Below, piece by piece: positions 14,285 to 28,154 of a stretch of 64,000 nucleotides of DNA (position 1 is the stretch's first letter; every line of letters starts with the position of its first letter). The stretch is from Candidatus Aminicenantes bacterium (GTDB lineage: Bacteria; Acidobacteriota; Aminicenantia; Aminicenantales; UBA4085). The stretch spans positions 24,323 through 88,322 of the forward strand of contig CAWDOL010000015.1 of the NCBI GenBank assembly GCA_963803915.1, read 5' to 3'. The translations under genes were made by a program, and so were the position numbers. The notes under the pieces are model-generated. The model saw only the letters and a list, made by a program, of their open reading frames with translations, was not told the DNA's origin and searched no databases.

Positions 14285-17200
14285 ATGAGCCCCGCCGCCC
14301 CCGAATTCATCCTGGTCAAGGCCTCGGCCGGGTCCGGCAAGACGCACGCCCTGACCAAGCGCTATCTTGGGCTGGCCCTGGCCGGGCCCGCGGGACCGGA
14401 TGCGGCGGCTGAGGGCGGGGGCGGATTGGCCTCCATCCTGGCCATCACCTTCACCAAGAACGCGGCCGGGGAGATGAAGTCGCGCATCCTGGACTGGCTC
14501 AAAGAGGCCTATTTCGGGGACGCCGAGCGGATCGCCCAGCTGCGGGAAGTCGTCCCCGTCCAGGCCAAGGCCTTCCCCGGTCTGGCCGGCCGGGCCATCG
14601 ACCGCATCCTGTCCGACTTCGCCGACTTCCAGGTGGAGACGATCGACAGCTTCATGGCCTCGGTCTTCAAGGCCTCGGCGGTGGACCTCGGCTTCCCGCC
14701 CGACTTCGAGATCGTCCTGGAGCATGCCGAGCTCATCGACTACGCCTTCTACCGGCACCTGCGGAGTGTCCGGGCCGGCTCGCCCGAGGCGGCCGACTTC
14801 GACGCCATCCTCGATTACCTGCTCCTCTACAAGGGCGAGAGCTCCTCGTTCGCCTGGAACCCGACACCCGAGATCCTGGAGAAGCTGACCGGCTTCTATG
14901 CCCGGCTGACGGCGCGGGAAGCCGAGCCCGCGATCGGCGGGCACTCCAAGGCCCTGGCCGACAGCCTGGCGCGATTGACCGCCGCCGCGGGCAAGCTGGA
15001 AGACGCGGTGGAGGCCTCGGGGCTCGAGAAGAACCTCAAGGCGCCCTGCTTCACCAAGATCCTGCCGGCCGTCCGCGACAAGCGCTTCAGCGACCTGGTC
15101 GGCGCCAGCTTCAAGACGTCGCCGGTCAGAAAGCCCAAGGGCGCAAAGCCGGGCGCTTCCGGAGGCGACCGTCGCAAAGGCCTGGACCGGGCTCGAAAGC
15201 GCCGTTCGCCGCTACTCCGCTCTTTACGCGCGCGATTTCTTCACTCCCTACCTCCGGGCCTACCGCTCGCTGGCCGGAACGCTCGACCGCGTCAAGCGGA
15301 CGCAAGGGGTCGTCTTCCTGGAGGACATGTACCGCCAGCTGGCGGGATACATCGGGGCGGGCATCGTCCCCGACATCTACTTCCGGCTGGGCGAGCGGGT
15401 GCGCCACTTCCTGATCGACGAGTTCCAGGACACCTCGCCGATGCAGTGGCTCAACCTGCGGCCGCTGGTCGAAGAGTCGCTGAGCCTGGGCGGGAGCCTG
15501 TTCCTCGTCGGCGACACCAAGCAGGCCATCTACGGCTTTCGCGACGCCGACTTCCGGATCATGCGCGGCCTCGAGACCGGCGCGGACAGTGTTCGACTCC
15601 GTGCTCAAGCCCAAGGTGGACAGCCTGAAGCTGAACTACCGCAGCGGCCAGGCGCTCGTTGAATTCGTCAAGGAGCGCTTCCACGCAGTCCCGGAGGAAT
15701 ACGCCGCGGCGGCCAAGCTGAGCGGGCTGGATGATTTCAACCAGGAGTCCAACCCGAAGCACGAGCACCCCGGCTATGTCGAGTATGAGATCCTGACCAA
15801 GGACGGCGCCGAGGACGAGGATCGGGAGGACGGGGAACTTCGGCGAGGGCGAGGCCGACGCCGACGCCGAGGCGCCCGAGAAAGCGCGCGTCCAGGACCT
15901 GGTGCGCGAGCTTCGCGGCCGCGGCTATGCCTATTCCGACATCGCCGTCCTGACCCGGACCAACGAGTCCGTGGCGGCCGTCTCCTCCTGGCTCAACGAA
16001 AAAGACATCCCCTTCATCCCCTACAGCAGCCTGGACATCCGGGGCCGCAAAGTCATCGGCGAAGTCCTGGCCGTGCTGGCTTTCCTGGACGCCCCTCCGG
16101 ACGACCTGGCTTTCGCCGCCGTTCTCCTGGGCGACGCCTTCGGCCGGGCGGCCGGAGAGAGGGAATTCCCGTTGGAGGAGAGACGCCGATTCCTGTTCGA
16201 ATGCCGGACCGCCGGGCGATCGCCCCTCTACGTGGCCTTCCGCGATCGCCGGCCGGCTCTCTGGGCGCGGCTCTTCGAGCCCCTCTTCCAGGCCGTCGGC
16301 TATTACCCGCTCTACGACCTGGCCGTGTCCGTGTACCGGGCCTTCGACCTCTTCGCCTCGTTTCCCGGCGAGGAGGCGGCCCTGACCCGCTTCCTGGAAG
16401 CCATCAAGGGCTTCGAAGGCAAGGGCCGGAACGACCTGCGCGAATTCCTGGCCTTCACCGGCGAGGAAGGGGCGGAGGCCTGGACGATCGACGTTCCCGA
16501 GACGATCGACGCCGTCAAGGTCATGACCATCCACAAGGCCAAGGGCCTGGGATTCCCGGTGGTCATCCTGCTCGTTTACCCCGAGAGATGGCGGCCGCCC
16601 GACTTCTTTCTCGATGAAGGCGAGGACGGGATCAGGGTCCTCAAGATCAACAAATCGCTGGCCGCGGCGGACGACGACCTGAAACGCGTCTACGAGGAGG
16701 CGCGCCTTCGTGACCAGGTCAACAGCTTGAACACGCTCTACGTGGCCTTGACCCGGGCCGAGTCCGAGCTCTATATCGTCGGCGTCATGGGGAAAACGCC
16801 CAAGTTCCCGTTCGACGTGCTGGGCGATGCGTTCCGATCGGCCGAGGATCGTCCTCCCATTCCCCGCCGGGAACCGAAGTCCGCGGGCGAGCCGGCCGCG
16901 CTCAACCGGCTGGCCGGAGTCTTCGAGGCCCCCTTCGACTCGCGCCAAAGCTTGAACGAGGCCAACCGGCGGCGGGGCGAGTTCGCCCATCGGATCATGG
17001 CCGAGATCGAGTACGTCGAAGGCGATTGGCCGGCGGCGGCCGCCGAGGCCGCTTCGCGCATCGACCCGCGATTCCGCGCCTCGGCCGGGGCGGCACCCGA
17101 CGAGGATTCGGCCGGGCTGGTGGAAGCCATCGCCGCGTTTTTCGCCTGCGATCCGGCGGCCGGGCTTTTCCGTCCGCGGCCGGACCGGCGCGTCCTGCGC

Positions 17201-17429
17201 GAGGCCAATTTCTGCGACGCCGCCGGCCGGTCCTTCCGGATGGACCGCGTCGTCGTCGATGCCGGACGCGGTCCACGTCGTCGACTTCAAGACCGGGCGC
17301 GAGCCGGGCCTCGGCGACCGAATTCAGGTCCTCGACTACCTGGCGCTGGTCAAGGACATCTTTCCGGGGCGGGCCGTGCACGGTGTGCTGGCCTACATCG
17401 ACCAGGGCGTCTGGGAGGCGGTCGAATGA
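14285..17429 (+). CDS. addA: AddA-like UvrD helicase/nuclease; frameshifts near 15170, 15590, 15840 and 17270
   Basis: ASAGSGKT, AITFTKNAAGEMK, IDEFQDTS, VGDTKQAIYGFR, TIHKAKGL, LYVALTRA, C-terminal RMDRVV..DFKTG. Confidence 0.85.
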
Positions 17430-20400
17430 GCGTCGTCCTCGTCCCGCCGCGCGAGGGCCTGGTCGCCTCGGTCCTGGGCCGCCTGGCGCCGCAGGGCAAG
17501 GACTACACCCGGTACTGGGTCGTCTTCCCCGAACGTCGGCCGGGCTACTACCTGCGCAAGGCCCTGGCCGAGCGCGAAGGCACGGCCTTTCTCCCGCCGC
17601 GCATCGATTCGATGGACGCCTTCGTCGACCGCGTGCATCGCGAGCGGCTGGGCCGGCGCGAGCGGTCGATCGACGCCCTTGATGCCGCGGCCCTGTTGTT
17701 CGAGATCCACCGCGGCGAGCCCGGCCGCCTGGGCGGCGGGCACTTCCTGACCGCCGACCAGTTCTTCCCGCTGGCGGCCAAGCTCTTCCGCGACCTGGAG
17801 GAGATGGCCGGAAGCTCCGTCGCCCCGGAGGCCCTGGCCCGCTCCGACGGCTGGTCGGAAGAGCGCATCCCGGAGACGACCCGGCAGCGTCTGCAGTCCC
17901 TCTCGCTCTTCTACGAGCGCTTCTACGAGACCCTGGCCCGGCGCGGCTATTCGACGTCCGGCTCGCGGCTTCGCGACGTCGTCGCCGCCCTCGAGCCGAG
18001 CTTGTTCGAAGGCGTCGAACGGATCGTCCTGGCCGGCTTCTTCCCGACCGCGGGGGGAGAGGCGGACATCCTGCGGACCATGGCCGACTGGCCCGGCGTG
18101 GATGTGCTTCTGCAAGAAGGGGCCGGCGTCGAGAAGGCGCTCGAACGGATCGGGGCGGGGGGGGCGGATTTGCGCGCCCGGGCGCAGATGGCCGAAGCGC
18201 TCGCTCCGGCAGCGGACATCGAGATCGTCGAGAGCCCCGATGTGCACGGCCAGGTCTTCGCCCTCAACGCGGCCCTGGCGCCCGCCTTAGCTGACCCCGG
18301 CCGACTGGACGAGACGCGCGTCATCGTCCTCCCGGCCGCGGAAACCCTGTTCCCCCTCCACCAGCAGACGCTGGCCGCGCTGCCGCCCGAGGCGTACAAC
18401 ATCTCCCTCGGTTATCCACTGGCCCGGACGCCGATCTCCGGTTTCTTCGACCGCCTGATCGAGATCCTCCAGTCGGCCGACGAGGAGGGCCGCGTCTATG
18501 CCCCCCACTATCTGCGCTTTCTGCTCCACCCCTATACGAAAAATATATTCTTCGGTGGACTCGGTGTGGGTGAGGGAACGGGATTCGATCCAGAGGGACC
18601 AGGGAAAAAGCGAAAGCTCGATGCGGGTGATGCGGATGGAAATAGGGAATTACGTATACTGTACCCCTTTTTTTCGGGTCGGGCCGACCTGACCCGGATC
18701 CTCGTCCATGCCGTCGAGGACCAGCTCGTGGCGCGCCGGACGCGGGCCTTCTGGTCCCTGGACGAGCTTGTGGCGGACGCCGGTGTGCGGGAGGCCGTGG
18801 CCGAGCGGTCCCGCGGCGTTGAGGGAGCGCCCGATCCGGCCGCCTTCATGGCCCACTTGGCCTCGCTCCACGCCGCCCTGATCGTGCCCTTCCGCGAGAT
18901 CCGCGACGTGCGCGAGTTTTCTTCCAAGCTGTGCGCCGCCCTGGCCCACATCTACGAGCACAGCACGGCCCGACGCCACGTCTTCTTCCATCCCTACGCC
19001 GAGGCCTTCATGGACCGGCTGGAGGCGCTGGGGCGGTCGCTCCTGGGGCCGACCGTGTTCGAGGACCGGACCTCCTATTTCAACCTCTTCCGCAAGGTCA
19101 TCGCCGCCGGCACCGTGCCTTTCGAGGGCGTGCCCTTGCGCGGCCTGCAGGCGCTGGGATTCTGGGAGACGAGGGGGCTGCCCTTCCGCGACGTCTCGAT
19201 CCTGGACCTCAACGAAGACGTCCTGCCGGCCGCCCAGCGGGTCGACTCGCTGCTGCCGTTTGCGGCCCGGCGTGCTTTGGGGCTTCCCACCTACAAGGAC
19301 GCCGAGCGCAGGGCCGCCTACCATCTTGACGCCCTGCTGCGGGGCGCGGATCGGGTCCGCATCTTCTACGTCAAGTCCAAGGACCGCCGGCCCAGCCGCT
19401 TCGTCGAGCGCCTGATCTGGGAGAGGCAGAAGCGGGAGCGCGAGATGCGGGCCTCGCGGTTCGTGCGCAGGGTTCGCTATCAGGTGGCGCTGCAGGAGCC
19501 GCCGCTCGAGCCCGTCCCCAAGGGGCCTGAGGTTGCCGCCTTTCTTCAGACTATGGCCTTCTCGGCTACCGCTCTGGATGCCTACCTGCGCTGCCCCCTC
19601 CAATTCCACCGCCGTTATGTCTTGGGGCTCAAGGAGCGGGAGGATTTGGGCGAGGAGATGGAGGCCAAAGACGTCGGGTCGTTCGTCCATTCGATCCTTG
19701 AAGAATACTTCGGCCGCTTCGTCGGCAGGGACCTTCACGCCCGCGATCTCGACCCGGCCGGGCTCGCGGCCGTCGTCGAGCGCCGTTTCGAAGAGAGCTT
19801 CGGCCCCGAGCCGAGCGGCGGGCTCTACCTGATGCGGCGCCAGACCCTGGCCCATCTCGGCGAATTCCTGACCGGATACCAGGCGCCGGCCGCAGCCGGC
19901 ATGGAGCGCGAAGGGAAGGCGCTCCGCATCCTCGGGCTGGAGAAGAAGCTGTCCCTGGAATGGAATGGGACTCCTTCCGGCAAGCTTTTCCGTCTGACGG
20001 CCAAGGTGGACCGGATGGAGCTTCGCGGCGACGAGCTCTATGTCCTCGACTATAAGACCTCGGGCAATCCCAAGTATCTGGGCATCGCCTTCGACAAGCT
20101 GGACCTGGACGATCGGCCCTCCTGGTCGGAGCATGCGGCCAGCGTCCAGCTGCCGTTCTATCATCTCGTCCTGGCCCGCACCCCGCTTCCTCCGCCCGCG
20201 AAGCCGGAAAAAATCCGCTGCGCTTTTCTCCTTTTGGGTCGAAAGAGCCTCGGACCGGGCATCGAGTGGCCGGCATTCGCCGGTGGCCGCGAGATGAGGG
20301 CTCTGGACAAGCTTCTGGCCTCGCCGGATACGCCGGCCGTGGAGCGGGATCGGGCTCTGGTGGAGCGGGCGAGGCTTGAGGCCGAGCGAGCCTCCCTAAC

Positions 20401-20521
20401 GGAAAGCCTGATCGGCCGGCTCTTGGACGAGATCGCCGATCCGGCGCATCCCTTCGATCCCGCCCTGCGGCGGCCCGACGCCTGCGACCGATGCCCCACC
20501 GCGGGCATGTGCGGCCGCTGA
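17426..20521 (+). CDS. addB: AddB-like PD-(D/E)XK nuclease with Fe-S cysteines
   Basis: ATGA overlap with addA; YLRCP, KVDRMELR..LDYKT, VQLPFY and C-terminal CDRCPTAGMC. Confidence 0.85.
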   Translation: MSVVLVPPREGLVASVLGRLAPQGKDYTRYWVVFPERRPGYYLRKALAEREGTAFLPPRIDSMDAFVDRVHRERLGRRERSIDALDAAALLFEIHRGEPGRLGGGHFLTADQFFPLAAKLFRDLEEMAGSSVAPEALARSDGWSEERIPETTRQRLQSLSLFYERFYETLARRGYSTSGSRLRDVVAALEPSLFEGVERIVLAGFFPTAGGEADILRTMADWPGVDVLLQEGAGVEKALERIGAGGADLRARAQMAEALAPAADIEIVESPDVHGQVFALNAALAPALADPGRLDETRVIVLPAAETLFPLHQQTLAALPPEAYNISLGYPLARTPISGFFDRLIEILQSADEEGRVYAPHYLRFLLHPYTKNIFFGGLGVGEGTGFDPEGPGKKRKLDAGDADGNRELRILYPFFSGRADLTRILVHAVEDQLVARRTRAFWSLDELVADAGVREAVAERSRGVEGAPDPAAFMAHLASLHAALIVPFREIRDVREFSSKLCAALAHIYEHSTARRHVFFHPYAEAFMDRLEALGRSLLGPTVFEDRTSYFNLFRKVIAAGTVPFEGVPLRGLQALGFWETRGLPFRDVSILDLNEDVLPAAQRVDSLLPFAARRALGLPTYKDAERRAAYHLDALLRGADRVRIFYVKSKDRRPSRFVERLIWERQKREREMRASRFVRRVRYQVALQEPPLEPVPKGPEVAAFLQTMAFSATALDAYLRCPLQFHRRYVLGLKEREDLGEEMEAKDVGSFVHSILEEYFGRFVGRDLHARDLDPAGLAAVVERRFEESFGPEPSGGLYLMRRQTLAHLGEFLTGYQAPAAAGMEREGKALRILGLEKKLSLEWNGTPSGKLFRLTAKVDRMELRGDELYVLDYKTSGNPKYLGIAFDKLDLDDRPSWSEHAASVQLPFYHLVLARTPLPPPAKPEKIRCAFLLLGRKSLGPGIEWPAFAGGREMRALDKLLASPDTPAVERDRALVERARLEAERASLTESLIGRLLDEIADPAHPFDPALRRPDACDRCPTAGMCGR
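18637..18672 (+). repeat. Repeat family C, copy 3, inside the addB reading frame
   Basis: tggaaatagggaattacgtatactgtaccccttttt within a lower-GC in-frame segment. Confidence 0.85.
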
Positions 20522-21186: not shown

Positions 21187-22185
21187 ATGGTCATGGAATA
21201 CCGCAACCTCGGCCGCTCGGGACTCAAGGTCTCGGCCCTCTCCTACGGTACCTGGGTCACTTTCGGCGAGCAGATCGACGAAGCCCAGGGCGCGTCTTGC
21301 CTGAAGGCCGCTTTCGACGCCGGCGTCAATTTCTTCGACACGGCTGAAGTCTACGCTCAAGGCCAGGCCGAGACGATGCTGGGGTCCATCATTCGCCGCT
21401 TCGGCTGGAAGCGATCCGACCTTGTCATTGCGACCAAGATCTTCTGGGGAGGTGACGGCCCGAACGATACCGGCCTGTCGCGAAAGCACATCCTCGAGGG
21501 AAGCGAGGCTTCGCTGCGGCGGCTGGGCCTGGACTACGTGGACTTGTTGTTCTGCCATCGGCCGGACCGGGAGACGCCCATCGAGGAGACGGTGCGGGCC
21601 ATGTCCCATCTGGTGAATAGCGGCCGAACTCTCTACTGGGGCACGAGCGAGTGGGGCGGCGACGCCATCCGGACGGCCTACGAGATCGCCCGGCGCGAAC
21701 GGCTCGTCCCGCCGACCATGGAGCAGCCTCATTACAACATGTTCACCCGGGAGCGCATGGAGCGGGAGCTCCTGCCCCTCTTCCGGGATTACGGGCTGGG
21801 GACGACGACTTGGAGCCCGCTCAACTCCGGCTTCCTGACGGGCAAATACCTCAAGGGCATCCCCGCGGGATCGCGGCTGACGCTCAGCGGCTACGGCTGG
21901 CTGAAGAAGCGGTTCGAAGGACCCGAGGGCGCGGCCAAGAAGCCCAAAGTCGCCAAGCTGGCTCGGCTGGCGGCCGAGCTGGGCGTCCCTCTGCCGCAGA
22001 TGGCCATCGCCTGGTGCTTGAAGAACCCCCACGTCAGCTCGGTCATCACCGGCGCCTCCGCTCCCGGGCAGGTCGTCGAGAATATGAAGGCCCTGGATGC
22101 GGTGCCGCTCCTGACGCCGGAGATCATGGCCCGGATCGAGAAGATATTGGGCAACACCCCCGCGCCTGAGCCCGACTTCAGGTAG
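21187..22185 (+). CDS. Aldo/keto reductase (Kv-beta-like)
   Basis: YRNLGRSGLKVS, FFDTAEVY, GLSRKHI, YWGTSEW, WSPL. Confidence 0.92.
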   Translation: MVMEYRNLGRSGLKVSALSYGTWVTFGEQIDEAQGASCLKAAFDAGVNFFDTAEVYAQGQAETMLGSIIRRFGWKRSDLVIATKIFWGGDGPNDTGLSRKHILEGSEASLRRLGLDYVDLLFCHRPDRETPIEETVRAMSHLVNSGRTLYWGTSEWGGDAIRTAYEIARRERLVPPTMEQPHYNMFTRERMERELLPLFRDYGLGTTTWSPLNSGFLTGKYLKGIPAGSRLTLSGYGWLKKRFEGPEGAAKKPKVAKLARLAAELGVPLPQMAIAWCLKNPHVSSVITGASAPGQVVENMKALDAVPLLTPEIMARIEKILGNTPAPEPDFR

Positions 22186-22208
22186 GGGTCAGGTCTCAAC
22201 ATTTGACA
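22183..22208 (+). repeat. Repeat family B, solo arm
   Basis: taggggtcaggtctcaacatttgaca, 26/26 identical to 51077-51102. Confidence 0.9.
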
Positions 22209-22231
22209 TTTGGGCTCCTTCGGCCTACCTT
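22203..22231 (+). promoter_or_regulatory. Putative sigma70 promoter for the uORF-secA2 unit
   Basis: TTGACA (22203-22208), 17 nt, TACCTT (22226-22231); ATG at 22240. Confidence 0.6.
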
Positions 22232-22239
22232 GTCTCCTC

Positions 22240-22476
22240 ATGATCAACGATTGGAACGCACCCGCGGGATGGAGCCGGGACATTTTTGGCTGGACTGTTC
22301 TGGCCGGACTCATCGTCCTGGCGCTCTTCCTTCCGCCGTTGCTGATCTTCCTGCTGATCGCCGCGACCATCGGCGTTCTGCTCGCCGCCGCGCCCGGTCG
22401 CGCCCGGGTTGCCGTTCCGGCCGCGGCCTTTTCTCCCGTGCGGTGCCTTGCGACGCGCGCCCCGCCCCTTCTCTGA
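22240..22476 (+). CDS. 78-aa membrane leader peptide ending RAPPLL; candidate translation-arrest peptide
   Basis: Hydrophobic residues 15-51, RAPP codons at 22456-22467, 46 nt upstream of the secA paralog. Confidence 0.7.
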   Translation: MINDWNAPAGWSRDIFGWTVLAGLIVLALFLPPLLIFLLIAATIGVLLAAAPGRARVAVPAAAFSPVRCLATRAPPLL

Positions 22477-22519
22477 CCTCCATCTCCGCCCCTCTTCCAT
22501 TCCACTCCGCAGGAGGTCA
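22474..22519 (+). promoter_or_regulatory. SD-sequestering stem upstream of the secA paralog
   Basis: tgacctcc (22474-22481, includes the uORF stop) is the exact reverse complement of ggaggtca (22512-22519, overlapping the AGGAGG SD). Confidence 0.7.
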
Positions 22520-22522
22520 TTC

Positions 22523-25003
22523 ATGTCCATGTCCGGTTTTAAACAGCGCCGCCCGAGGGCGGCTCGCAGGGCTTTCGGCCGTATCGTCGGCGATCCCGTC
22601 ATCAAGGATCTCAAGCCCTATTTCGATGTCGTCGAAGCGATCAAAGTCCTCGATTTCGGCCCCGAATCCGACGCGGGCCTTTGCGCCCGCGCGGCCGCCT
22701 TGCGCGACCGCGCAATCCCGCCGCATTCTTCCAACCCCGCTATCCCCTCCGCTCTCAAAGACCTGGAGGTCGAGGCCTTCGCTCTGGTCCGCGAAGCATC
22801 CCGCCGCGCCCTGGCCCTCGATCCGTTCGACGTCCAGATGATCGCCGGCCTGGCCATGGCCCGCGGCCGGGCGGCCGAGCTGCCGACGGGGGAGGGCAAG
22901 ACCCTGGCCGCCGTGTTCCCGGCTTTCCTGCACGCGCTCTCAGGCCGCGGCGTCCACATCCTGACCTTCAACGACTACCTGGCCCGCCGCGACGCGGAAT
23001 GGATGGGGCCGGCCTTCCGGCTTCTGGGCTTGTCCGTGGGCTGCGCCCAGGAGGGGCAAACCCCCGCCGCCAAGCGGGAAGCCTATGCCTGCGATGTGAC
23101 CTACGCCACGGCCAAGGAGGCCGGCTTCGACTTCCTGCGCGACCGGATCGCCGAGAGCCCGGCGGACCTCGTCCACCGGCCTTTTCATTTCGCCCTGGTC
23201 GACGAGGCCGATTCCATCCTCATCGACGAGGCCCGTATCCCGCTGGTCATTTCCGGCACCGAGGACCGGGTTTCCTGGGACGCGGCCAAGCTTGCGGCCG
23301 TCGTAAAACGGCTCTTGCCGGGCCGCGACTACGAGACCGACGACGAGCACCGCAACGTCTTCCTGACCGAAGCCGGGCAGGCGACGGCCGAGGCGGCCCT
23401 GGGGATCGTGGGGCTCTACGAGGCTGAGCATCAGCCCGCCCTGGAAGCCCTCTATTGCGCCCTCCATGCCGAGAGCCTCCTGCGGCGCGACATCGACTAC
23501 ATTGTGCGCGACGGCCGCATCGCCATCGTCGACGAGTTCACCGGCCGGGTTGTGGAGAAGCGCCATTGGCCGGACGGGCTGCAGGCTGCGGTCGAGGCCA
23601 AGGAAGGGCTGAAGCGCCGGACCGAAGGCCGCATTCTCGGCTCGATCACCCTGCAGCATTTCTTCCGGCTCTACCCGGCCATGGCCGGCATGACCGCCAC
23701 CGCCCGGACGGCGGCCGCGGAGCTGAAAGAATTCTACGGCCTGGATACGGTCATTGTGCCCCCCCATGTTCCGAGCCGGCGAGCGGACCTCCCTGACGCC
23801 GTCTATTCGAGCCGTGCCGCCAAGCGCAAGGCACTGGCCGGCGAGATCGCCGCTGCCCGGGCCGCAGGCCGGCCCGTTCTGGTCGGCACGGCTTCGGTCA
23901 GGGAGTCCGAAGAGCTGGCTTCGGACCTGGGGGAGGCGGGAATCGTCTGCGCCGTCCTCAACGCGCGAAACGACGAGCACGAGGCCGCCGTCGTGGCCGA
24001 GGCGGGCCTACCGGGGGCCGTGACCATTTCGACCAACATGGCTGGGCGCGGCACGGATATCCGCTTGGGCGGAGCGGACTCAAGGCGGCATGCTGAGGTC
24101 GCGGCCCTGGGCGGCCTCTACGTCATCGGAACCAACCGGCACGAAAGCCTGCGCATCGACCGCCAGCTCCGCGGACGGGCCGGGCGCCAAGGCGACCCCG
24201 GGCAAACCCGCTTCTTCATCAGCATCGAGGACGACCTGTTCGATCACTACGGGTTGACCAAGATCTTCCGCCAACGGCACCGCATCGAGGAGGGGGACGG
24301 AGAGATCGGGACCGCGGCCATGCGCCGAGAGGTCGAGCACGCCCAACGGGTCATCGAGGGCCAGAACTTCGATATCCGGCGCCAGCTGGCCAAGTATTCC
24401 TCGCTGGTCGAGCTGCAACGGCAAGTCGTGCAGGCGCGGCGTGATGCGCTGCTCCTGGGCGTAACGGACGGACCGGAGGACGACGCTTGGCCGCTCGGCC
24501 GCCTCCGCGAGAGAGACCCCGAGACGTGGCACCGGGCGGAGGAAAGGATCGGCTCTGCCGCTGCCGTCGACCTCGAGCGCCGGGTCGCGCTCTATCTCCT
24601 GGACAGGGCCTGGTCCGACCACTTGGCCTGGGTCCAGGATACGCGCGAGAGCATCCATCTGGTCAGCCTGGGGGGAAAGACGCCGATCGACGAGTTCCGA
24701 CGCCAGGCCACCGAGGTCTTTCTGGACTTGCGCCGGCGGATCGCGGAAGTCGTGGCCGACGAGGTCGAGGCGATCCTGAAGAGCGAGGACGACCCGGCCG
24801 CGGCCCTGAAGCGGCTCAAGGGCCCCTCTTCGACCTGGACCTACCTGGTCAATGAGGATCAGTTCGGCTGGGGCATGGAGCTGATCAAGGGCAAGAACAT
24901 CGGCTCCGCGGCGATCGCGGCCGGGGCCTTCGGACCCCTGCTCGTCCTGACCCTGCTTCTCCGGCGCTTCTTCCGGCGCAAGCCTAAGACGCCGCCGGCT
25001 TAA
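22523..25003 (+). CDS. secA2: Accessory SecA (SecA2-like) ATPase with a C-terminal hydrophobic tail
   Basis: TGEGKT, NDYLARRD, VDEADSILIDEARIPL, STNMAGRGTDI, QLRGRAGRQGDPG; no C-terminal Cys/His zinc motif; ends GPLLVLTLLLRRFFRRKPK. Confidence 0.9.
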   Translation: MSMSGFKQRRPRAARRAFGRIVGDPVIKDLKPYFDVVEAIKVLDFGPESDAGLCARAAALRDRAIPPHSSNPAIPSALKDLEVEAFALVREASRRALALDPFDVQMIAGLAMARGRAAELPTGEGKTLAAVFPAFLHALSGRGVHILTFNDYLARRDAEWMGPAFRLLGLSVGCAQEGQTPAAKREAYACDVTYATAKEAGFDFLRDRIAESPADLVHRPFHFALVDEADSILIDEARIPLVISGTEDRVSWDAAKLAAVVKRLLPGRDYETDDEHRNVFLTEAGQATAEAALGIVGLYEAEHQPALEALYCALHAESLLRRDIDYIVRDGRIAIVDEFTGRVVEKRHWPDGLQAAVEAKEGLKRRTEGRILGSITLQHFFRLYPAMAGMTATARTAAAELKEFYGLDTVIVPPHVPSRRADLPDAVYSSRAAKRKALAGEIAAARAAGRPVLVGTASVRESEELASDLGEAGIVCAVLNARNDEHEAAVVAEAGLPGAVTISTNMAGRGTDIRLGGADSRRHAEVAALGGLYVIGTNRHESLRIDRQLRGRAGRQGDPGQTRFFISIEDDLFDHYGLTKIFRQRHRIEEGDGEIGTAAMRREVEHAQRVIEGQNFDIRRQLAKYSSLVELQRQVVQARRDALLLGVTDGPEDDAWPLGRLRERDPETWHRAEERIGSAAAVDLERRVALYLLDRAWSDHLAWVQDTRESIHLVSLGGKTPIDEFRRQATEVFLDLRRRIAEVVADEVEAILKSEDDPAAALKRLKGPSSTWTYLVNEDQFGWGMELIKGKNIGSAAIAAGAFGPLLVLTLLLRRFFRRKPKTPPA

Positions 25004-25857
25004 TAGAGGACCTTGTCCTCGCCGCGCTCGCGGATGAGCGCCTCGACCTCTGCGACGATGAGGTCGCGCCGGCCGAGAAGGACTTGGATCTCCTTGGACG
25101 TCAGGTGGGCTTTGACCGCGGCCTTGACGGACTTGGCGTCCAGGGCCCGCAGCGCATCGAGAAAGGTCCGGGGCAGCTGCTGGAACAGGTGGGGTGTGCC
25201 GTCCTTGGCCTTCTGCAGGCCCGCCGCCCCGAAGACGAGCGTCCGGTCGAACGGGATCTGCGTCCGGAAGGTACGCGAATGATCGATCAGAATCATCCGC
25301 CGGCCATCGTCGCCGAGCAGGATGTTGTTGACGTTGCGATCGTCGTTGGCGATCAGGGAGTCGAAGGCCCTTTCCAGAAAGGCCTTGCGGTTGAAGTCTT
25401 CACGTGCGTCGGCCGGGACATCGGACCCGCGGGCCAGCCGGCTCTTCAGGCTTTCGGTGTCGTCGATCCAGAGCTGGAGCGATCCCCAGCCGCCGTGGAA
25501 GGAGCGTTCCACGGTGGGCGGGATCATGTTCAGGCCGAGAAGGGCGTCAAGCCGGTAGGCGGCGACTTCGTAGCGCCAGCGGTCGGGGCCGCCCTGTTCA
25601 AAATCGATGTCGATGTTCTTCCAGAGACCGAAGCGCGTGACGCCGCCCTTCGAGAGAGTCAGCTTCCACGGGTTTGTAACCGCCTCTGGGCCTCCCATCT
25701 GCTTGGAATCCACGATCCGAGCCGTGCGGAGAAAGTCCTCCAAGCCGGCCCGTTCGGCGAGATCGGAGAGCCCGACCTGAGCGGAAGCGGCGGCCAGGGC
25801 GGCGCTCCAGAGGGCAAGGAACAGTGCGACACGGCGACCGTCGATTCGGAACGGCAT
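25000..25857 (-). CDS. Exported atypical kinase-like protein (PI3K/PI4K-like fold)
   Basis: Signal peptide; EVAAYRLD, PPTVER, GSLQLWI, FDSLIANDDRNVNN, LIDHS. Confidence 0.7.
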   Translation of the reverse strand: MPFRIDGRRVALFLALWSAALAAASAQVGLSDLAERAGLEDFLRTARIVDSKQMGGPEAVTNPWKLTLSKGGVTRFGLWKNIDIDFEQGGPDRWRYEVAAYRLDALLGLNMIPPTVERSFHGGWGSLQLWIDDTESLKSRLARGSDVPADAREDFNRKAFLERAFDSLIANDDRNVNNILLGDDGRRMILIDHSRTFRTQIPFDRTLVFGAAGLQKAKDGTPHLFQQLPRTFLDALRALDAKSVKAAVKAHLTSKEIQVLLGRRDLIVAEVEALIRERGEDKVLY

Positions 25858-25977
25858 GGCATCCTCCCTGCGCGGATCGTTAATTGAGGATAGTCCAATC
25901 CCGGGCCCGAAAGCAACTTGTGTCGGGGCCTGCAACGGCGTATGGTAGGCTCTTTCCAATCCCTCCAGGAGGCCGCC

Positions 25978-26751
25978 ATGACATCGCTCAAAGACCGCGT
26001 CGTCTTCATCACCGGGGCCAGCTCGGGCATCGGCCGAGCCGCGGCCAAGGCCTTCGCGCGCGAGGGCGCCCGCATCCTCCTCTGCGCCCGTCGGGCCGAG
26101 CGGCTGACCGAGCTGGCTCGGGAGATCGAGGCGGAGTTCCGCGTCCCGGCTCATGCCTTTGCCCTCGACGTGCGCGACCAGCCCGCCGTGGCGGCGGCCA
26201 TCGCCGGCCTGCCGCCCGAGTGGACGGAGATCGACGTCCTGGTCAACAACGCCGGGCTGAGCCGCGGCCTGGACAAGCTGCACGAGGGGCTTCTCTCGGA
26301 TTGGGAGGAGATGATCGATACCAACATCAAGGGCCTGCTTTACGTCAGCCGGGCCGTGTTGCCGGGCATGGTGGCCCGGGGGCGCGGCCACGTCATCAAT
26401 ATCGGCTCGATTGCCGGTCACGACATCTATCCCGGCGGCAACGTCTACTGCGCCACCAAGTTCGCCGTCAACGCTTTATCGCGCGGCCTGCGCATGGACC
26501 TGGTGGCCACCCCCGTCCGCGTCAGCACGGTCGATCCCGGCATGGTCGAAACGGAGTTCAGCCGGGTCCGCTTCCACGGCGACGACGAGCGGGCGGCCAA
26601 GGTCTACCAGGGGATCGCGGCCCTGACGCCCGAGGACGTGGCCGAAGCCGTGCTCTTCTGCGCCACGCGGCCGCCGCATGTCTCCATCGCCGAGATGATC
26701 GTCATGCCGACGGCCCAGGCCTCGCCGATGCTGGCCCACCGCAGGAGCTGA
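25978..26751 (+). CDS. SDR oxidoreductase (YdfG-like)
   Basis: TGASSGIG, VNNAG, YCATK, PGMVETEFS. Confidence 0.9.
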   Translation: MTSLKDRVVFITGASSGIGRAAAKAFAREGARILLCARRAERLTELAREIEAEFRVPAHAFALDVRDQPAVAAAIAGLPPEWTEIDVLVNNAGLSRGLDKLHEGLLSDWEEMIDTNIKGLLYVSRAVLPGMVARGRGHVINIGSIAGHDIYPGGNVYCATKFAVNALSRGLRMDLVATPVRVSTVDPGMVETEFSRVRFHGDDERAAKVYQGIAALTPEDVAEAVLFCATRPPHVSIAEMIVMPTAQASPMLAHRRS

Positions 26752-26789: not shown

Positions 26790-28154
26790 TCAGGTCCCCA
26801 GGACAAGCCGGTTCTTACCCTGGGCTTTGGCCTTGTAGAGCGCCTCATCCGCGACTTGGATGATGGATTGCAAGTCTCGCACGGATGCGGAGGGGAAGCC
26901 TGCGATGCCCCCGCTGAAAGTGAAGCGCAGACTCAAGGCGCCGTACTGGACGTTGAGCGCGGCGACCGTCTCCCGGACGCGTTCCATGAACTTGTACCCG
27001 TCCACGGCCGAAGCGCCGGGCGCCACGATGAGGAACTCCTCCCCGCCGTAGCGGACGACGAAGTCGGAGACCCGGATGCTCTGGGCGATGGTCTCGGCCA
27101 GGGTCCGCAGGACGACATCCCCGGCCGGGTGGCCGAAGGTGTCGTTGATCTTCTTGAAGTCGTCGATGTCGATCATGGTGACGGACAGGGGGATGCCGTG
27201 GCGCTTGGACATCTCGAACTCTTCCGTCAACCGCTTGAGCCCGAACCTCCGGTTCAAGGCTCCGGTCAGCTCGTCCATGGCGGCCAGGATTTCCAGCCGC
27301 TTCATCAGCAGGCCGTTTTCCAGGAAGGGCGTGGCCTGGTTGATGAAATTTCGATTCTCCAGGGACTCGAAGTCGCCCCGAAAACCCTCCCGTCCCAGGA
27401 GAATGGCCAGCCCGATGCTGTTGGCTTGGTACTTCAGGGGGATCAGAGCGATGCTTCGCGGGGCCAGAGTCCCGATGCCGATATTGAGGGCCAGGGCGCC
27501 CGGCTCGATGTCGGCCAGGACGACCGGCGCCCCGGCGTCCAGGACCTGGAACAATCGCTTGGCGTCGAGACGGGACATCTCCACGGAAATGCCCCGGCTC
27601 TTCAGAAGGGTCAGCTGCCCGCGCTCGAGACCCACGAGACACCCGCCTTCGCCGCCGAAGCGCAGCCGGAACGACTCCAGGATGATCTCGGCGATATCGT
27701 CGATCTTCAAGGTTCGTTTCAGCTGATCGAGAAACGTCTCCGTCGCCCGTTCGTATTCGACGAAATGGTAGATCGTGTCGATGAGCGAATTGAACTCGTC
27801 GGCCAGCCCCCCGATGGTGTCCTCCGATTCCAGAAGGACATGGCAATCCCCGGGCTTGCAGCCGATCGTCCGGTCGGTCGTGAACGCGGTGAGCTTGCCC
27901 CGGAAGCTGACGATCTTGCCGCTCATCCGCCGCAGGATGCGATAAACGATGATCCGGAAGATCGTATAGTTCAGAAGGCCGACGAGCAGTCCCGCTGCGA
28001 TGCACATGAAGAAGAACAGCGGGCTCAGGGCTACGCTCCGGGGCAGGTGGAGCACCGCCTGGGTGAAGAACGGGAAGACCAGCCCCATGACCAGGCCGAA
28101 CCCGAGCATGGCCAGGAGCAGACGCCGCGAGACGCTGTTGAAGTGAATTCGCAA
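26790..28154 (-). CDS. Membrane-anchored diguanylate cyclase
   Basis: Two N-terminal TMs, DELTGALNRR, DIDDFKKINDTFGH, RYGGEEF. Confidence 0.9.
   Translation of the reverse strand: MRIHFNSVSRRLLLAMLGFGLVMGLVFPFFTQAVLHLPRSVALSPLFFFMCIAAGLLVGLLNYTIFRIIVYRILRRMSGKIVSFRGKLTAFTTDRTIGCKPGDCHVLLESEDTIGGLADEFNSLIDTIYHFVEYERATETFLDQLKRTLKIDDIAEIILESFRLRFGGEGGCLVGLERGQLTLLKSRGISVEMSRLDAKRLFQVLDAGAPVVLADIEPGALALNIGIGTLAPRSIALIPLKYQANSIGLAILLGREGFRGDFESLENRNFINQATPFLENGLLMKRLEILAAMDELTGALNRRFGLKRLTEEFEMSKRHGIPLSVTMIDIDDFKKINDTFGHPAGDVVLRTLAETIAQSIRVSDFVVRYGGEEFLIVAPGASAVDGYKFMERVRETVAALNVQYGALSLRFTFSGGIAGFPSASVRDLQSIIQVADEALYKAKAQGKNRLVLGT

What the first reader, a model, noticed from the sequence alone, without database searches (positions are those of the whole stretch)
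22203..22525. Candidate arrest-peptide (RAPP) leader controlling an accessory SecA
Seen: a 78-aa ORF (ATG 22240) with a long hydrophobic stretch (residues 15-31 and 34-51) ending R-A-P-P-L-L-stop. Its stop codon begins an 8-nt segment (tgacctcc) exactly complementary to the secA2 SD region (ggaggtca), across a CU-rich loop. A TTGACA-17-TACCTT promoter lies just upstream. Known: RAPP/RAGP-type motifs are the stalling cores of SecM, ApdA and ApdP, membrane-targeted monitoring peptides whose stalling opens an SD-occluding hairpin for sec genes. Inference: a ribosome stalled at the Pro-Pro codons (22462-22467) would cover the 5' arm and induce secA2 when membrane insertion of the leader fails. The first TM ends about 44 residues before the stall site, a plausible pulling distance. 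I do not recognise this leader family or its link to this SecA type.
Basis: partly seen in the sequence, partly recalled or inferred. Interest (0 to 1): 0.88.

Follow-up and report, generated by a model that had tools for sequence, protein, structure and literature searches.

The report
RxPP arrest-peptide leader of accessory SecA2
A short membrane-targeted peptide gene ending in Arg-Ala-Pro-Pro sits in front of a second SecA gene in Aminicenantes bacteria and most likely works as a ribosome-stalling sensor that switches that gene on; this kind of switch is known, this particular lineage and SecA type seem not to have been described.

Summary
There is a 78-aa ORF (22240-22476) with a long hydrophobic block that ends RAPPLL-stop. 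An 8-bp stop-codon/SD helix (22474-22481 with 22512-22519) spans a 30-nt, 80% C+U loop. A TTGACA-17-TACCTT box lies upstream, and a SecA paralogue starts at 22523.

The unit is conserved:
- Among 61 Aminicenantes genomes, 28 carry this SecA2. Of these, 27 carry the leader directly upstream and one has a frame-shifted remnant. None of the 33 genomes without SecA2 has the leader.
- Only R, P and P are invariant in the peptide. All 98 database homologues end in R[S/A/G]PP plus 1-3 residues.
- The promoter boxes, the 43-61 nt spacer and a strong GGAGG are conserved.
- In 24 of 26 loci the longest helix holding the SD has its 5' arm inside or at the edge of a ribosome paused on RxP|P. In the window's clade the arm overlaps the stop codon. 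In other clades the Pro-Pro codons form it.

It therefore works like the RAPP-type monitoring substrates (the RQH family of Fujiwara 2024). The Aminicenantes group is not named in any main text I searched, and the supplements were closed. Unusual features are a tail-anchored, TIGR04221-type SecA2, a short TM-to-arrest spacer, and an apparently leaderless start. There is no experimental evidence.

The parts
22203..22231 (+). Sigma-70-like promoter: -35 TTGACA (22203-22208), 17-nt spacer, -10-like TACCTT (22226-22231). The -10 box ends 8 nt before the leader ATG, so the leader mRNA would be leaderless or nearly so.
   Evidence: Sequence read. TTGAC[A/T/G]-16/18-TA(T/G/A)nnT is visible by eye upstream of the leader in 25 of the 27 loci printed; the exceptions are L021 and the frame-shifted L029. 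In the window's genus it is mostly TATCTT, 8-9 nt before the ATG. The tool's consensus scan missed it. The transcription start is inferred, not measured.
22240..22476 (+). Leader ORF (uORF), 78 aa plus stop: a short N-tail, a long hydrophobic block, a basic linker, then RAPPLL-stop.
   Evidence: Homologous ORFs of 61-80 aa sit upstream of secA2 in 26 loci. The profile finds a single copy in the own genome at E = 6.9e-17. There are 98 database homologues, all named 'hypothetical protein' where a source gives a name and none with a Pfam domain. The leader itself has no Pfam hit.
22282..22398 (+). Hydrophobic membrane-targeting block (residues 15-53) with a central Pro-Pro; conserved core LxLAxLxPPLxLxLL.
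   Evidence: Block length across 26 leaders is 23-44 residues (median 35.5). Net charge is about +1 on the N-side and about +4 on the C-side. Boundaries come from a crude hydropathy rule, not a TM predictor.
22456..22467 (+). Arrest motif R73-A74-P75-P76 (CGC GCC CCG CCC). [quoted passage not shown]
   Evidence: R, P and P are invariant and the middle residue is A, G or S in all 26 aligned leaders. The same holds in all 98 database homologues: RSPP 74, RAPP 19, RGPP 5. The stall geometry is taken from ApdA/ApdP structures (PMC10951233, abstract and passages). It was not measured here.
22474..22481 (+). 5' arm of the SD-sequestering helix (UGACCUCC). It begins with the leader stop codon and lies +12 to +19 from the first nt of the P-site codon.
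   Evidence: The same stop-overlapping arm, at +12/+13, is present in all 10 loci of the window's clade.
22482..22511 (+). 30-nt loop, 80% C+U, carrying further weaker anti-SD-like CUCC motifs.
   Evidence: The next-best SD partners, at 6 bp, lie in this loop.
22512..22519 (+). 3' arm of the helix (GGAGGUCA), which contains the Shine-Dalgarno sequence of secA2, 3 nt before the ATG.
   Evidence: A GGAGG-type SD (GGAG/GAGG in L027 and L028) lies 4-12 nt before the chosen start in the 26 loci where a secA2 start could be assigned. The leader stop to secA2 start distance is 43-61 nt in all 26.
22523..25003 (+). secA2: an 826-aa accessory SecA ATPase with Walker A GEGKT at residue 123 and VDEADS at residue 226.
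   Evidence: Pfam SecA_DEAD, P-loop_SecA, SecA_PP_bind and SecA_SW. NCBIfam TIGR04221 SecA2_Mycobac scores 800.4 bits against a cut-off of 725. A canonical SecA lies on contig C16 at 444 bits, against 318 bits for this one.
24899..24961 (+). C-terminal hydrophobic tail of SecA2 (residues 793-813, IGSAAIAAGAFGPLLVLTLLL) followed by RRFFRRKPK. This is a putative tail anchor.
   Evidence: It is present in all 22 full-length orthologues printed. It is absent from the mycobacterial homologue L051 and from the Bryobacterales homologues. Membrane anchoring is inferred from hydropathy only.

Best explanation
The region 22203-25003 is a two-gene unit made of a promoter, a leader ORF and secA2. The leader is a RAPP-type translation-arrest peptide, a 'monitoring substrate'.

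Proposed mechanism:
1. The ribosome translating the leader pauses with ...R73-A74-P75 on the P-site tRNA and Pro76-tRNA in the A site.
2. While it is paused, its mRNA channel reaches to about +12 to +15 nt from the P-site codon. This melts the 5' part of the UGACCUCC arm that otherwise pairs with the secA2 Shine-Dalgarno GGAGGUCA. A second ribosome can then start on secA2.
3. The leader's hydrophobic block has partly emerged from the tunnel at that moment. When the membrane-targeting and insertion machinery engages it, the pull on the nascent chain releases the pause. The ribosome then terminates two codons later, the helix re-forms, and secA2 stays off.
4. SecA2 is therefore induced when membrane insertion or secretion capacity is short.

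Shown here:
- The ORF, the motif and the helix are present.
- The leader co-occurs strictly with secA2.
- R-x-P-P is invariant.
- The promoter, the spacing and the position of the anti-SD next to the arrest site are conserved.

Inferred from known RAPP peptides and not shown here: the stalling itself, the stall site, force-dependent release, and which pathway (SRP/YidC/SecYEG/SecA2) is monitored.
For: 1. Co-occurrence. One search found a SecA2 orthologue (55-77% identity) in 28 of 61 genomes of the order. The leader profile hits 27 of those 28 at E <= 2.7e-10, always on the same contig directly upstream. In the other 33 genomes there is nothing better than E = 0.002. The 28th SecA2 genome, G040, has a frame-shifted leader remnant and a split secA2.

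2. Sequence pattern. In 26 aligned leaders that are 17-51% identical, the only invariant columns are R73, P75 and P76, and the residue between them is A, G or S. All 98 database homologues end in R[S/A/G]PP plus 1-3 residues. RAPP, RGPP and RSPP are the motifs that Fujiwara 2024 used or found for arrest peptides. RSPP is partially permissive for arrest in ApdA/ApdP (PMC12992588 passages).

3. RNA design.
- The leader stop to secA2 start distance is 43-61 nt in 26 of 26 loci, and each has a strong SD.
- In 24 of 26 loci the longest ungapped helix containing the SD has a 5' arm that starts at or before +15 from the P-site codon.
- In 10 of 10 loci of the window's clade that arm is the stop-overlapping (U)GACCUC(C/U).
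- In the 12 loci where the MFE helix covers the Pro-Pro codons, those codons are always CCU CCY. In the window's clade the first Pro codon varies: CCG 5, CCU 4, CCC 1.
- L017, L018 and L020 form 13-15-bp helices with matching flanks.

4. A dedicated promoter is conserved upstream of the leader in 25 of 27 loci.

5. Genome-wide, only 2 ORFs combine a TM-like segment with a C-terminal R[AGS]PP, and one of them is this ORF.

6. [quoted passage not shown]
Against: - No experiment exists, and no RNA data set holds the locus.
- The hairpin is not thermodynamically exceptional (z = -0.48). Because the spacer is C+U-rich, the SD is paired in most shuffles too (mean probability 0.75-0.96). The RNA argument therefore rests on the position of the arm and on conservation, not on stability.
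- True compensatory covariation is weak. The core is the invariant CCUCC:GGAGG. Swapping arms between loci lowers the mean helix length only from 8.6 to 6.9 bp, and that script mis-assigned the arm in 5 loci.
- Two of 26 loci (L021, L025) have their best helix further downstream, and L027 folds untidily.
- In the window's clade a paused ribosome would cover only the first 3-4 nt of the 8-nt arm. A ribosome terminating at the stop codon would cover all of it, so simple translational coupling could also open the SD.
- The fixed CCU Pro codons in the other clades could reflect their lower GC content.
- The hydrophobic block ends only 15-34 residues (median 24) before the P-site residue. This is shorter than the >30 aa spacer that Fujiwara 2024 required, so part of the block is still in the exit tunnel at the pause.
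- Most homologues carry RSPP, which is only partially arrest-competent in the ApdA/ApdP backgrounds tested with E. coli and B. subtilis systems.
Confidence: 0.8

Rival explanations
1. The leader is a small, stable membrane protein, for example a partner of the tail-anchored SecA2. Under this reading the helix serves plain translational coupling: any ribosome that reaches the leader stop codon opens the SD, so the two proteins are made together. No programmed arrest or sensing is involved.
For: In the window's clade the 5' arm starts at the stop codon. A terminating ribosome covers it fully, whereas a ribosome paused at P75/P76 covers only its first 3-4 nt. The hydrophobic core LxLAxLxPPLxLxLL is conserved, as expected for a functional membrane segment. 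SecA2 has a conserved hydrophobic tail of its own. The leader and secA2 co-occur strictly.
Against: The only invariant residues are R-x-P-P, 1-3 residues from the end, with x = A, G or S. This is exactly the known arrest motif set, and the rest of the cytoplasmic tail varies freely. In most other clades the anti-SD is formed by the Pro-Pro codons themselves. That places SD release at the arrest site rather than at termination. RAPP-like tetrapeptides are strongly avoided in ordinary proteins according to PMC12992588.
Confidence: 0.1
2. The leader does stall ribosomes, but the output is not SD unmasking. The paused ribosome would instead protect the transcript from Rho-dependent termination or from nucleases, or the pause would respond to a small molecule or metal rather than to membrane insertion, as reported for the RAPP peptide CruR.
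For: PMC12992588 section 13 reports that RAPP/RGPP uORFs also precede genes unrelated to Sec and cites a copper-responsive case. The helix is not unusually stable. A weak terminator-like hairpin lies inside the leader at 22411-22427.
Against: The downstream gene is a Sec component. The leader has a conserved membrane-targeting block. The anti-SD is positioned at the arrest site in 24 of 26 loci, with a tightly conserved 43-61-nt spacer. The terminator-like site count (1) equals the shuffle expectation of 0.9.
Confidence: 0.07
3. The ORF is a chance open frame in GC-rich DNA and the complementarity is coincidental.
For: At 64.8% GC, R, A, P and G codons are common. 35 of 15,788 ORFs of 50-150 aa end in R[AGS]PP. 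The fold z-score is -0.48.
Against: The frame, the length (61-80 aa), the hydrophobic core and the RxPP end are kept across leaders that are only 17-51% identical, and across genomes of very different GC content. The leader also co-occurs strictly with secA2.
Confidence: 0.01

Closest known systems
RQH family of RAPP-like arrest peptides upstream of secA ('uA_RQH_<order>' groups; Fujiwara et al. 2024, Nat Commun 15:2711, PMC10987492; sections 6, 7, 12, 16, 24, 25 and passages read)
   Same: Both are small uORFs of unknown function directly upstream of a SecA homologue. Both have an N-terminal hydrophobic localization signal and a C-terminal R-(A/G/S)-P-P a few residues before the stop. Both are restricted to particular lineages and patchy within them. 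RSPP and RGPP occur in homologues of RAPP-bearing uORFs, as the paper describes for its motif set.
   Different: The main text names the secA-upstream groups Pseudomonadales, Myxococcales, Bacteroidales_1/2, Desulfurobacteriales and Fimbriimonadales. 'Aminicenan' and 'Acidobacteri' have 0 occurrences in the main text. The full list of 19 groups is in supplements I could not open, so this group may or may not be listed there. Here the downstream gene is an accessory, tail-anchored SecA2 rather than the housekeeping SecA. The TM-to-arrest spacer (median 24 aa) is below the paper's >30 aa criterion. None of these peptides has been tested.
SecM-secA of Enterobacteria
   Same: Both are secA-upstream monitoring peptides. 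In both, the arrest motif has Arg three residues before the A-site Pro (RAG|P against RAP|P). In both, a stem-loop sequesters the secA SD and a stalled ribosome disrupts it, and a few codons lie between the stall site and the stop (PMC10987492 introduction).
   Different: There is no sequence homology, and the leader has no Pfam hit. SecM has a cleavable signal peptide and a long spacer (medians of 131.5 or 71 residues). This leader has an uncleaved-looking hydrophobic block with a spacer of about 24 residues. SecM controls the only SecA of the cell, while this leader controls a paralogue.
ApdA (Actinobacteria) and ApdP (Alphaproteobacteria)
   Same: They share the RAPP arrest core. [quoted passage not shown] Both types have an N-terminal localization signal.
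   Different: ApdA and ApdP lie upstream of secDF, not secA. Apart from the motif there is no sequence similarity, and they occur in different phyla.
MifM-yidC2 of Bacillus subtilis
   Same: Both have an N-terminal TM segment, a short and narrowly distributed TM-to-arrest distance, and a probable N-out/C-in orientation. Both regulate a paralogous, back-up component of the insertion machinery (MifM median spacer 54 residues).
   Different: MifM has a different arrest sequence with no RAPP and lies upstream of yidC2. The MifM details beyond the spacer and the yidC2 link are recalled, not checked here.
Mycobacterial-type SecA2 (NCBIfam TIGR04221)
   Same: The regulated protein scores above this equivalog's cut-off at 800.4 against 725 bits. 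It shares the C-terminal '(S/T)STWTY' motif with a Mycobacterium homologue, L051.
   Different: The Aminicenantes protein has about 40 extra C-terminal residues that form a hydrophobic tail plus a basic cluster. I found no report of an arrest-peptide leader for actinobacterial SecA2 in the papers read. The L051 upstream region showed no RxPP uORF.

Membership tests
Sec/YidC-related monitoring arrest peptides, RAPP-like 'RQH' class (criteria i-iv of Fujiwara 2024) | (i) A small uORF with no annotated function, directly upstream of and co-oriented with secA, secDF or yidC | tested here: met
   The 78-aa ORF ends 46 nt before secA2. It has no Pfam family. All database homologues that carry a name are called 'hypothetical protein'.
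Sec/YidC-related monitoring arrest peptides, RAPP-like 'RQH' class | (ii) An N-terminal secretion signal or TM segment | tested here: met
   An uncharged hydrophobic block of 23-44 residues is present in 26 of 26 leaders. The maximum KD-19 score for the window's leader is 2.94. This rests on hydropathy only, because no SignalP or TMHMM was available.
Sec/YidC-related monitoring arrest peptides, RAPP-like 'RQH' class | [quoted passage not shown] | tested here: met
   R73, P75 and P76 are invariant in 26 of 26 leaders. All 98 database homologues end in R[S/A/G]PP plus 1-3 aa.
Sec/YidC-related monitoring arrest peptides, RAPP-like 'RQH' class | [quoted passage not shown] | tested here: inconclusive
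   From the end of the whole hydrophobic block to the P-site residue the distance is 15-34 residues (median 24), and only 1 of 26 leaders exceeds 30. From the end of the first half of the block (residue 31 in the window) it is 44 residues. My boundaries are crude. This is also a screening criterion of one study rather than a mechanistic requirement.
Sec/YidC-related monitoring arrest peptides, RAPP-like 'RQH' class | A downstream SD sequestered in a helix that a ribosome stalled at the motif would disrupt | tested here: met
   The 8-bp helix 22474-22481/22512-22519 is predicted in the window. The 5' arm starts at or before +15 from the P-site codon in 24 of 26 loci. The stability is not exceptional.
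Sec/YidC-related monitoring arrest peptides, RAPP-like 'RQH' class | Ribosome stalling at RAP|P, shown by peptidyl-tRNA or toeprint and abolished by R or P substitutions | not testable with these tools
   This needs in vitro translation and toeprinting.
Sec/YidC-related monitoring arrest peptides, RAPP-like 'RQH' class | Arrest released by engagement with the localization machinery, and downstream gene induced when that machinery is impaired | not testable with these tools
   This needs reporter assays with Sec, YidC or SRP depletion.
SecM (Pfam SecM) | Sequence homology to SecM | tested here: not met
   The leader has 0 Pfam families at E <= 0.001.
Accessory SecA2, mycobacterial type (NCBIfam TIGR04221 equivalog) | A score above the curated cut-off, together with a second, canonical SecA in the same genome | tested here: met
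   The score is 800.4 bits against a cut-off of 725. A canonical SecA on contig C16 scores 444 bits against 318 for this one on PF07517. Function as an accessory export ATPase was not tested.

The most novel reading that the evidence does not exclude
This is an undescribed arrest-peptide family specific to Aminicenantes. It differs from the listed secA leaders in what it senses and what it controls. The TM-to-arrest spacing is short and tightly fixed, and the flanking charges suggest an N-out/C-in orientation. Together these would make it a monitor of membrane insertion of the YidC/SRP type, not a monitor of secretion. Its target is a tail-anchored SecA2, a SecA class with no known function. 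In much of the family the Pro-Pro arrest codons double as the anti-Shine-Dalgarno, so peptide arrest and RNA switch are encoded by the same six nucleotides. In the window's genus the leader mRNA appears to be leaderless.
Probability: 0.35. Interest if true: 0.65.

Novelty: new member of a known kind. Interest (0 to 1): 0.5.

Why it matters
The finding extends RAPP-type feedback control of the protein-export machinery to Acidobacteriota (Candidatus Aminicenantes) and to an accessory SecA2 rather than the housekeeping SecA.

The regulatory logic gives a functional hint for an uncharacterised, apparently membrane-anchored SecA2 found only in uncultured bacteria. If the leader is a monitoring substrate, this SecA2 is needed when membrane insertion or secretion is limiting.

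The family also offers natural variation for mechanistic work on arrest peptides. The motif occurs as RSPP, RAPP or RGPP. The anti-SD lies either on the stop codon or on the Pro-Pro codons. The TM-to-arrest spacer is short.

It is not a new principle. RAPP-like uORFs upstream of secA are already reported as widespread and patchy.

Tried and rejected
- Hairpin stability as evidence. The fold z-score was -0.48, and the shuffle control showed that the SD is paired in most shuffles. I dropped stability as an argument in favour of arm position.
- Arm-swap covariation test. The effect was small (8.6 against 6.9 bp). The script took the first CCTCC and so mis-assigned the arm in L007, L008, L015, L016 and L029. 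It is superseded.
- Consensus promoter scan. It found 0 sites. The promoter claim rests on the alignment by eye.
- Rfam scan of 22100-22600 at E <= 1: 0 matches.
- Phylum-wide search with the leader profile. It covered 401 genomes, with only 14 candidates scored per genome. There were 7 hits. Six were in the same order, including the window's own genome. The seventh (G427, E = 3.5e-6) reads through 2 TGA stops inside the end of a longer membrane-protein frame and has no SecA nearby, so I rejected it as spurious. The leader was not found outside the order in the genomes searched.
- SecA2-like loci outside Aminicenantes. I examined L043, L044, L047, L049 and L074, which have tail-bearing homologues at 48-52% identity, and the canonical Pseudomonadales SecA loci. 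None has a TM+RxPP uORF within 450-500 nt upstream. L045 has too little upstream DNA to judge.
- Expression data: no RNA holder was listed. All DNA holders had small shares (<= 0.18), so I did not use read laying.
- Literature. Two searches asked whether the Aminicenantes group is in print: 'Aminicenantes' with 'arrest peptide' gave 0 papers. 'Aminicenantales/Aminicenantia' with 'RQH' or 'uA_RQH_Aminicenantales' gave no paper holding a taxon term together with an RQH term. 'Acidobacteri' and 'Aminicenan' have 0 occurrences in the main texts of PMC10987492 and PMC7897499. In PMC12992588 'Acidobacteri' occurs only in a proteome-statistics figure legend. Two searches for a tail-anchored SecA/SecA2 returned nothing relevant in the listings. 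Supplementary figures and data of Fujiwara 2024 hold the list of the 19 RQH groups and the orphan uORFs. They were closed, and they could show that this group is already catalogued.
- I did not run complex prediction or structure prediction, because the report makes no binding claim.

Full report
**What is in the window**

- The leader ORF runs from ATG 22240 to TGA 22474-22476. It encodes 78 aa, MINDWNAPAGWSRD-IFGWTVLAGLIVLALFLPPLLIFLLIAATIGVLLAAAPG-RARVAVPAAAFSPVRCLAT-RAPP-LL.
- R73-P76 are nt 22456-22467.
- The stop codon opens the octamer TGACCTCC (22474-22481). This is the exact complement of GGAGGTCA (22512-22519), which holds the Shine-Dalgarno sequence 3 nt before the ATG at 22523.
- The 30 nt between the two arms are 80% C+U.
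- TTGACA (22203-22208), a 17-nt spacer and TACCTT (22226-22231) lie upstream, ending 8 nt before the leader ATG.

**The downstream gene**

The 826-aa product has all SecA domains in Pfam. It passes the NCBIfam equivalog for mycobacterial-type accessory SecA2, TIGR04221, at 800.4 bits against a cut-off of 725. It falls below the cut-offs of the canonical SecA models. The same genome is a 4.2-Mb, 30-contig, 76%-complete assembly. It has a second, better-scoring SecA on another contig. 'secA2' is therefore a fair name.

Record titles of the closest public loci read Candidatus Aminicenantes or Acidobacteriota.

**Is the leader conserved?**

A search of 60 relatives from 9 families of one order found a SecA2 orthologue (55-77% identity) in 28 of 61 genomes, counting the window's own. 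I oriented the loci and listed the upstream ORFs.

- Every locus with usable upstream DNA (26 of 27) has a 61-80-aa ORF with a hydrophobic block and a C-terminal R-(A/G/S)-P-P followed by 1-3 residues and a stop.
- The 27th locus, L029 from G040, has the same features split over two frames, and its secA2 is in pieces.
- In the alignment of 26 leaders, which are 17-51% identical to the window's, the only invariant columns are R73, P75 and P76.
- A profile of that alignment finds one copy in the own genome.
- Across the same 61 genomes it hits 27 of the 28 SecA2 genomes, always directly upstream of secA2. In the 33 genomes without SecA2 there is nothing better than E = 0.002.
- In a 401-genome sample of the phylum it was found only in the same order. 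The single outside hit was spurious.
- Against 5.8 billion proteins the profile finds 98 clusters. All named ones are 'hypothetical protein' and none has a Pfam domain. All 98 end in RSPP (74), RAPP (19) or RGPP (5) plus 1-3 residues.
- Five further species from the named collection show the same arrangement: L035-L038 and L041.

As a chance control I scanned the whole genome, which is 64.8% GC. Only 35 of 15,788 ORFs of 50-150 aa end in R[AGS]PP, and only 2 of those are also TM-like. One of the 2 is this leader.

**Promoter and start**

Printing the 75 nt upstream of each leader shows TTGAC(A/T/G), a spacer of 16-18 nt, and a TA(T/G/A)nnT box in 25 of 27 loci. This was read by eye. The tool's scanner reports nothing in the window, because TACCTT matches only 3 of 6 positions of TATAAT. 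Relatives mostly carry TATCTT, TAGAAT or TAAAAT.

In the window's genus the box ends 8-9 nt before the ATG, which leaves no room for an SD. The leader would be translated from a leaderless or nearly leaderless mRNA. This is an inference, and no RNA run holds the locus.

**The RNA switch**

In the 26 loci where a secA2 start could be assigned, a GGAGG-type SD precedes it and the leader stop lies 43-61 nt upstream. Minimum-free-energy folds pair the SD with a CCUCC-type anti-SD in every locus.

Two controls temper this result:
- The window's fold is not more stable than shuffles (z = -0.48).
- Because the spacer is C+U-rich, the SD is paired with mean probability 0.75-0.96 in dinucleotide shuffles as well.

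What is informative is where the partner lies.

- In 24 of 26 loci the longest ungapped helix containing the SD has its 5' arm starting at or before +15 from the first nt of the P-site (first Pro) codon. That places it inside or at the edge of the mRNA stretch a ribosome paused on RxP|P would occupy. The footprint is established knowledge from toeprinting and was not measured here.
- In all 10 loci of the window's clade the arm is (U)GACCUC(C/U) starting at the stop codon, at +12 or +13.
- In most other clades the arm is made by the Pro-Pro codons themselves (CCU CCY UUU pairing with AAA GGAGG). It reaches 13-15 bp in L017, L018 and L020.
- Where the helix uses the Pro codons they are CCU CCY in 12 of 12 loci. 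In the window's clade the first Pro codon varies (CCG 5, CCU 4, CCC 1). Lower GC content in those genomes may contribute to this.
- Exceptions are L021 and L025, whose best helix starts at +21, and L027, which folds untidily.
- An arm-swap test gave only a small effect and mis-assigned five loci, so I do not lean on covariation.

**Geometry of sensing**

The hydrophobic block is 23-44 residues long (median 35.5). It ends 15-34 residues (median 24) before the P-site residue, and the spacing is nearly gap-free in the alignment. The flanks carry about +1 net charge on the N-side and about +4 on the C-side.

At the pause, part of the block would still be in the exit tunnel.

Fujiwara et al. report that yidC-linked peptides have short, narrow spacers (MifM median 54). 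secA- and secDF-linked peptides have long, variable ones (SecM 131.5 or 71, VemP 133). This leader resembles the former. It falls below their >30-aa screening criterion, which may have kept it out of their set. Which pathway releases the arrest is open.

**Comparison with what is known**

RAPP-type arrest is well described.
- SecM unmasks the secA SD in the same way (PMC10987492 introduction).
- Fujiwara et al. 2024 screened 30,175 annotated GTDB genomes and defined an 'RQH family' of RAPP-like uORFs in 19 order-named groups, 8 of them upstream of secA. RAPP, RGPP and RSPP were among their query motifs.
- A 2025 paper reports that RSPP is partially arrest-permissive and that RAPP/RGPP uORFs are enriched upstream of secA (PMC12992588, passages and section 13).

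The main texts do not mention Aminicenantes or Acidobacteriota in this connection. No paper in the library links them. The group list sits in supplements that were closed.

I therefore file the element as a new member of a known kind, with the caveat that it may already be catalogued there.

Its particular features are:
- a tail-anchored SecA2 as target;
- a short, fixed spacer;
- RSPP as the majority motif;
- Pro-Pro codons doubling as the anti-SD in much of the family;
- a probable leaderless start.

**The SecA2 tail**

All 22 full-length orthologues end with a conserved ...GPSSTWTYLVNEDQFGWG... segment, followed by about 21 hydrophobic residues and a basic cluster.

- Homologues with the same tail but no RxPP leader occur in Terriglobia and other Acidobacteriota (L043-L045, L047, L049, L074).
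- Mycobacterial and Bryobacterales homologues lack the tail.
- The Pseudomonadales hits are canonical zinc-finger SecAs.
- Two literature searches found no description of such a SecA2.

**Verdict**

The most likely mechanism, at confidence 0.8, has three steps:
1. The ribosome arrests at R73-A74-P75 | P76.
2. This frees the secA2 SD.
3. Membrane engagement of the leader's hydrophobic block releases the arrest.

The main rival is plain translational coupling by a stable small membrane protein (0.1). That rival is hard to reconcile with R-x-P-P being the only invariant feature and with Pro-Pro codons serving as the anti-SD in other clades.

Noticed in passing
window 24899-24961 (SecA2 residues 793-813); also L043-L045, L047, L049, L074: The accessory SecA2 ends in a conserved hydrophobic segment of about 21 residues followed by a basic cluster, which looks like a tail anchor. 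The same tail occurs on homologues in Terriglobia and other Acidobacteriota that lack the RxPP leader. It is absent from mycobacterial and Bryobacterales SecA2-like proteins. Two searches found no paper on it.
   Followed up: partly
L009, L011-L014, L017-L020, L024, L028, L030 (leader 3' ends): In these clades the Pro-Pro arrest codons (CCU CCY) themselves form the anti-Shine-Dalgarno arm. The arrest motif and the RNA switch are therefore encoded by the same nucleotides. L017, L018 and L020 form 13-15-bp helices.
   Followed up: yes
window 22226-22242; L004, L005, L010, L015, L016: The conserved -10-like box ends 8-9 nt before the leader ATG and no SD is present. This implies a leaderless or near-leaderless leader mRNA in this genus. 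Other clades have 13-30-nt 5' UTRs.
   Followed up: partly
L029 (G040:C10) and L030 (G047:C1), L023 (G005), L016 (G002): Several secA2 orthologues are split or truncated. In G040 the leader is frame-shifted as well. These may be assembly errors or decay of the whole unit.
   Followed up: no
G000:C16:216216-218189 (L001): The canonical SecA of the same genome ends in a Gly/Pro/Arg-rich tail and lacks the usual C-terminal zinc-finger motif.
   Followed up: no
window 15902-20521 (+): A long ORF of 1539 aa from its first GTG carries UvrD_C and PD-(D/E)XK nuclease domains and looks like an AddB/RecB-type helicase-nuclease.
   Followed up: no
window 25000-26421 (-) against 25918-26751 (+): The mechanical 473-aa minus-strand ORF overlaps an SDR gene on the plus strand (adh_short). 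The real minus-strand gene probably starts near 25869, at a signal-peptide-like M. It has no Pfam family, and it converges on secA2 with a 4-nt overlap of the ends.
   Followed up: partly
window 26790-28154 (-): A GGDEF diguanylate cyclase with an N-terminal membrane region.
   Followed up: no
G000:C3, minus strand, ORF start 178432 (118 aa): This is the only other ORF in the genome that combines a TM-like segment with a C-terminal R[AGS]PP. It begins like a P-type ATPase fragment (CPC motif) and then turns Arg/Gly/Pro-rich. It is probably an out-of-frame or frame-shifted reading, not a leader.
   Followed up: no
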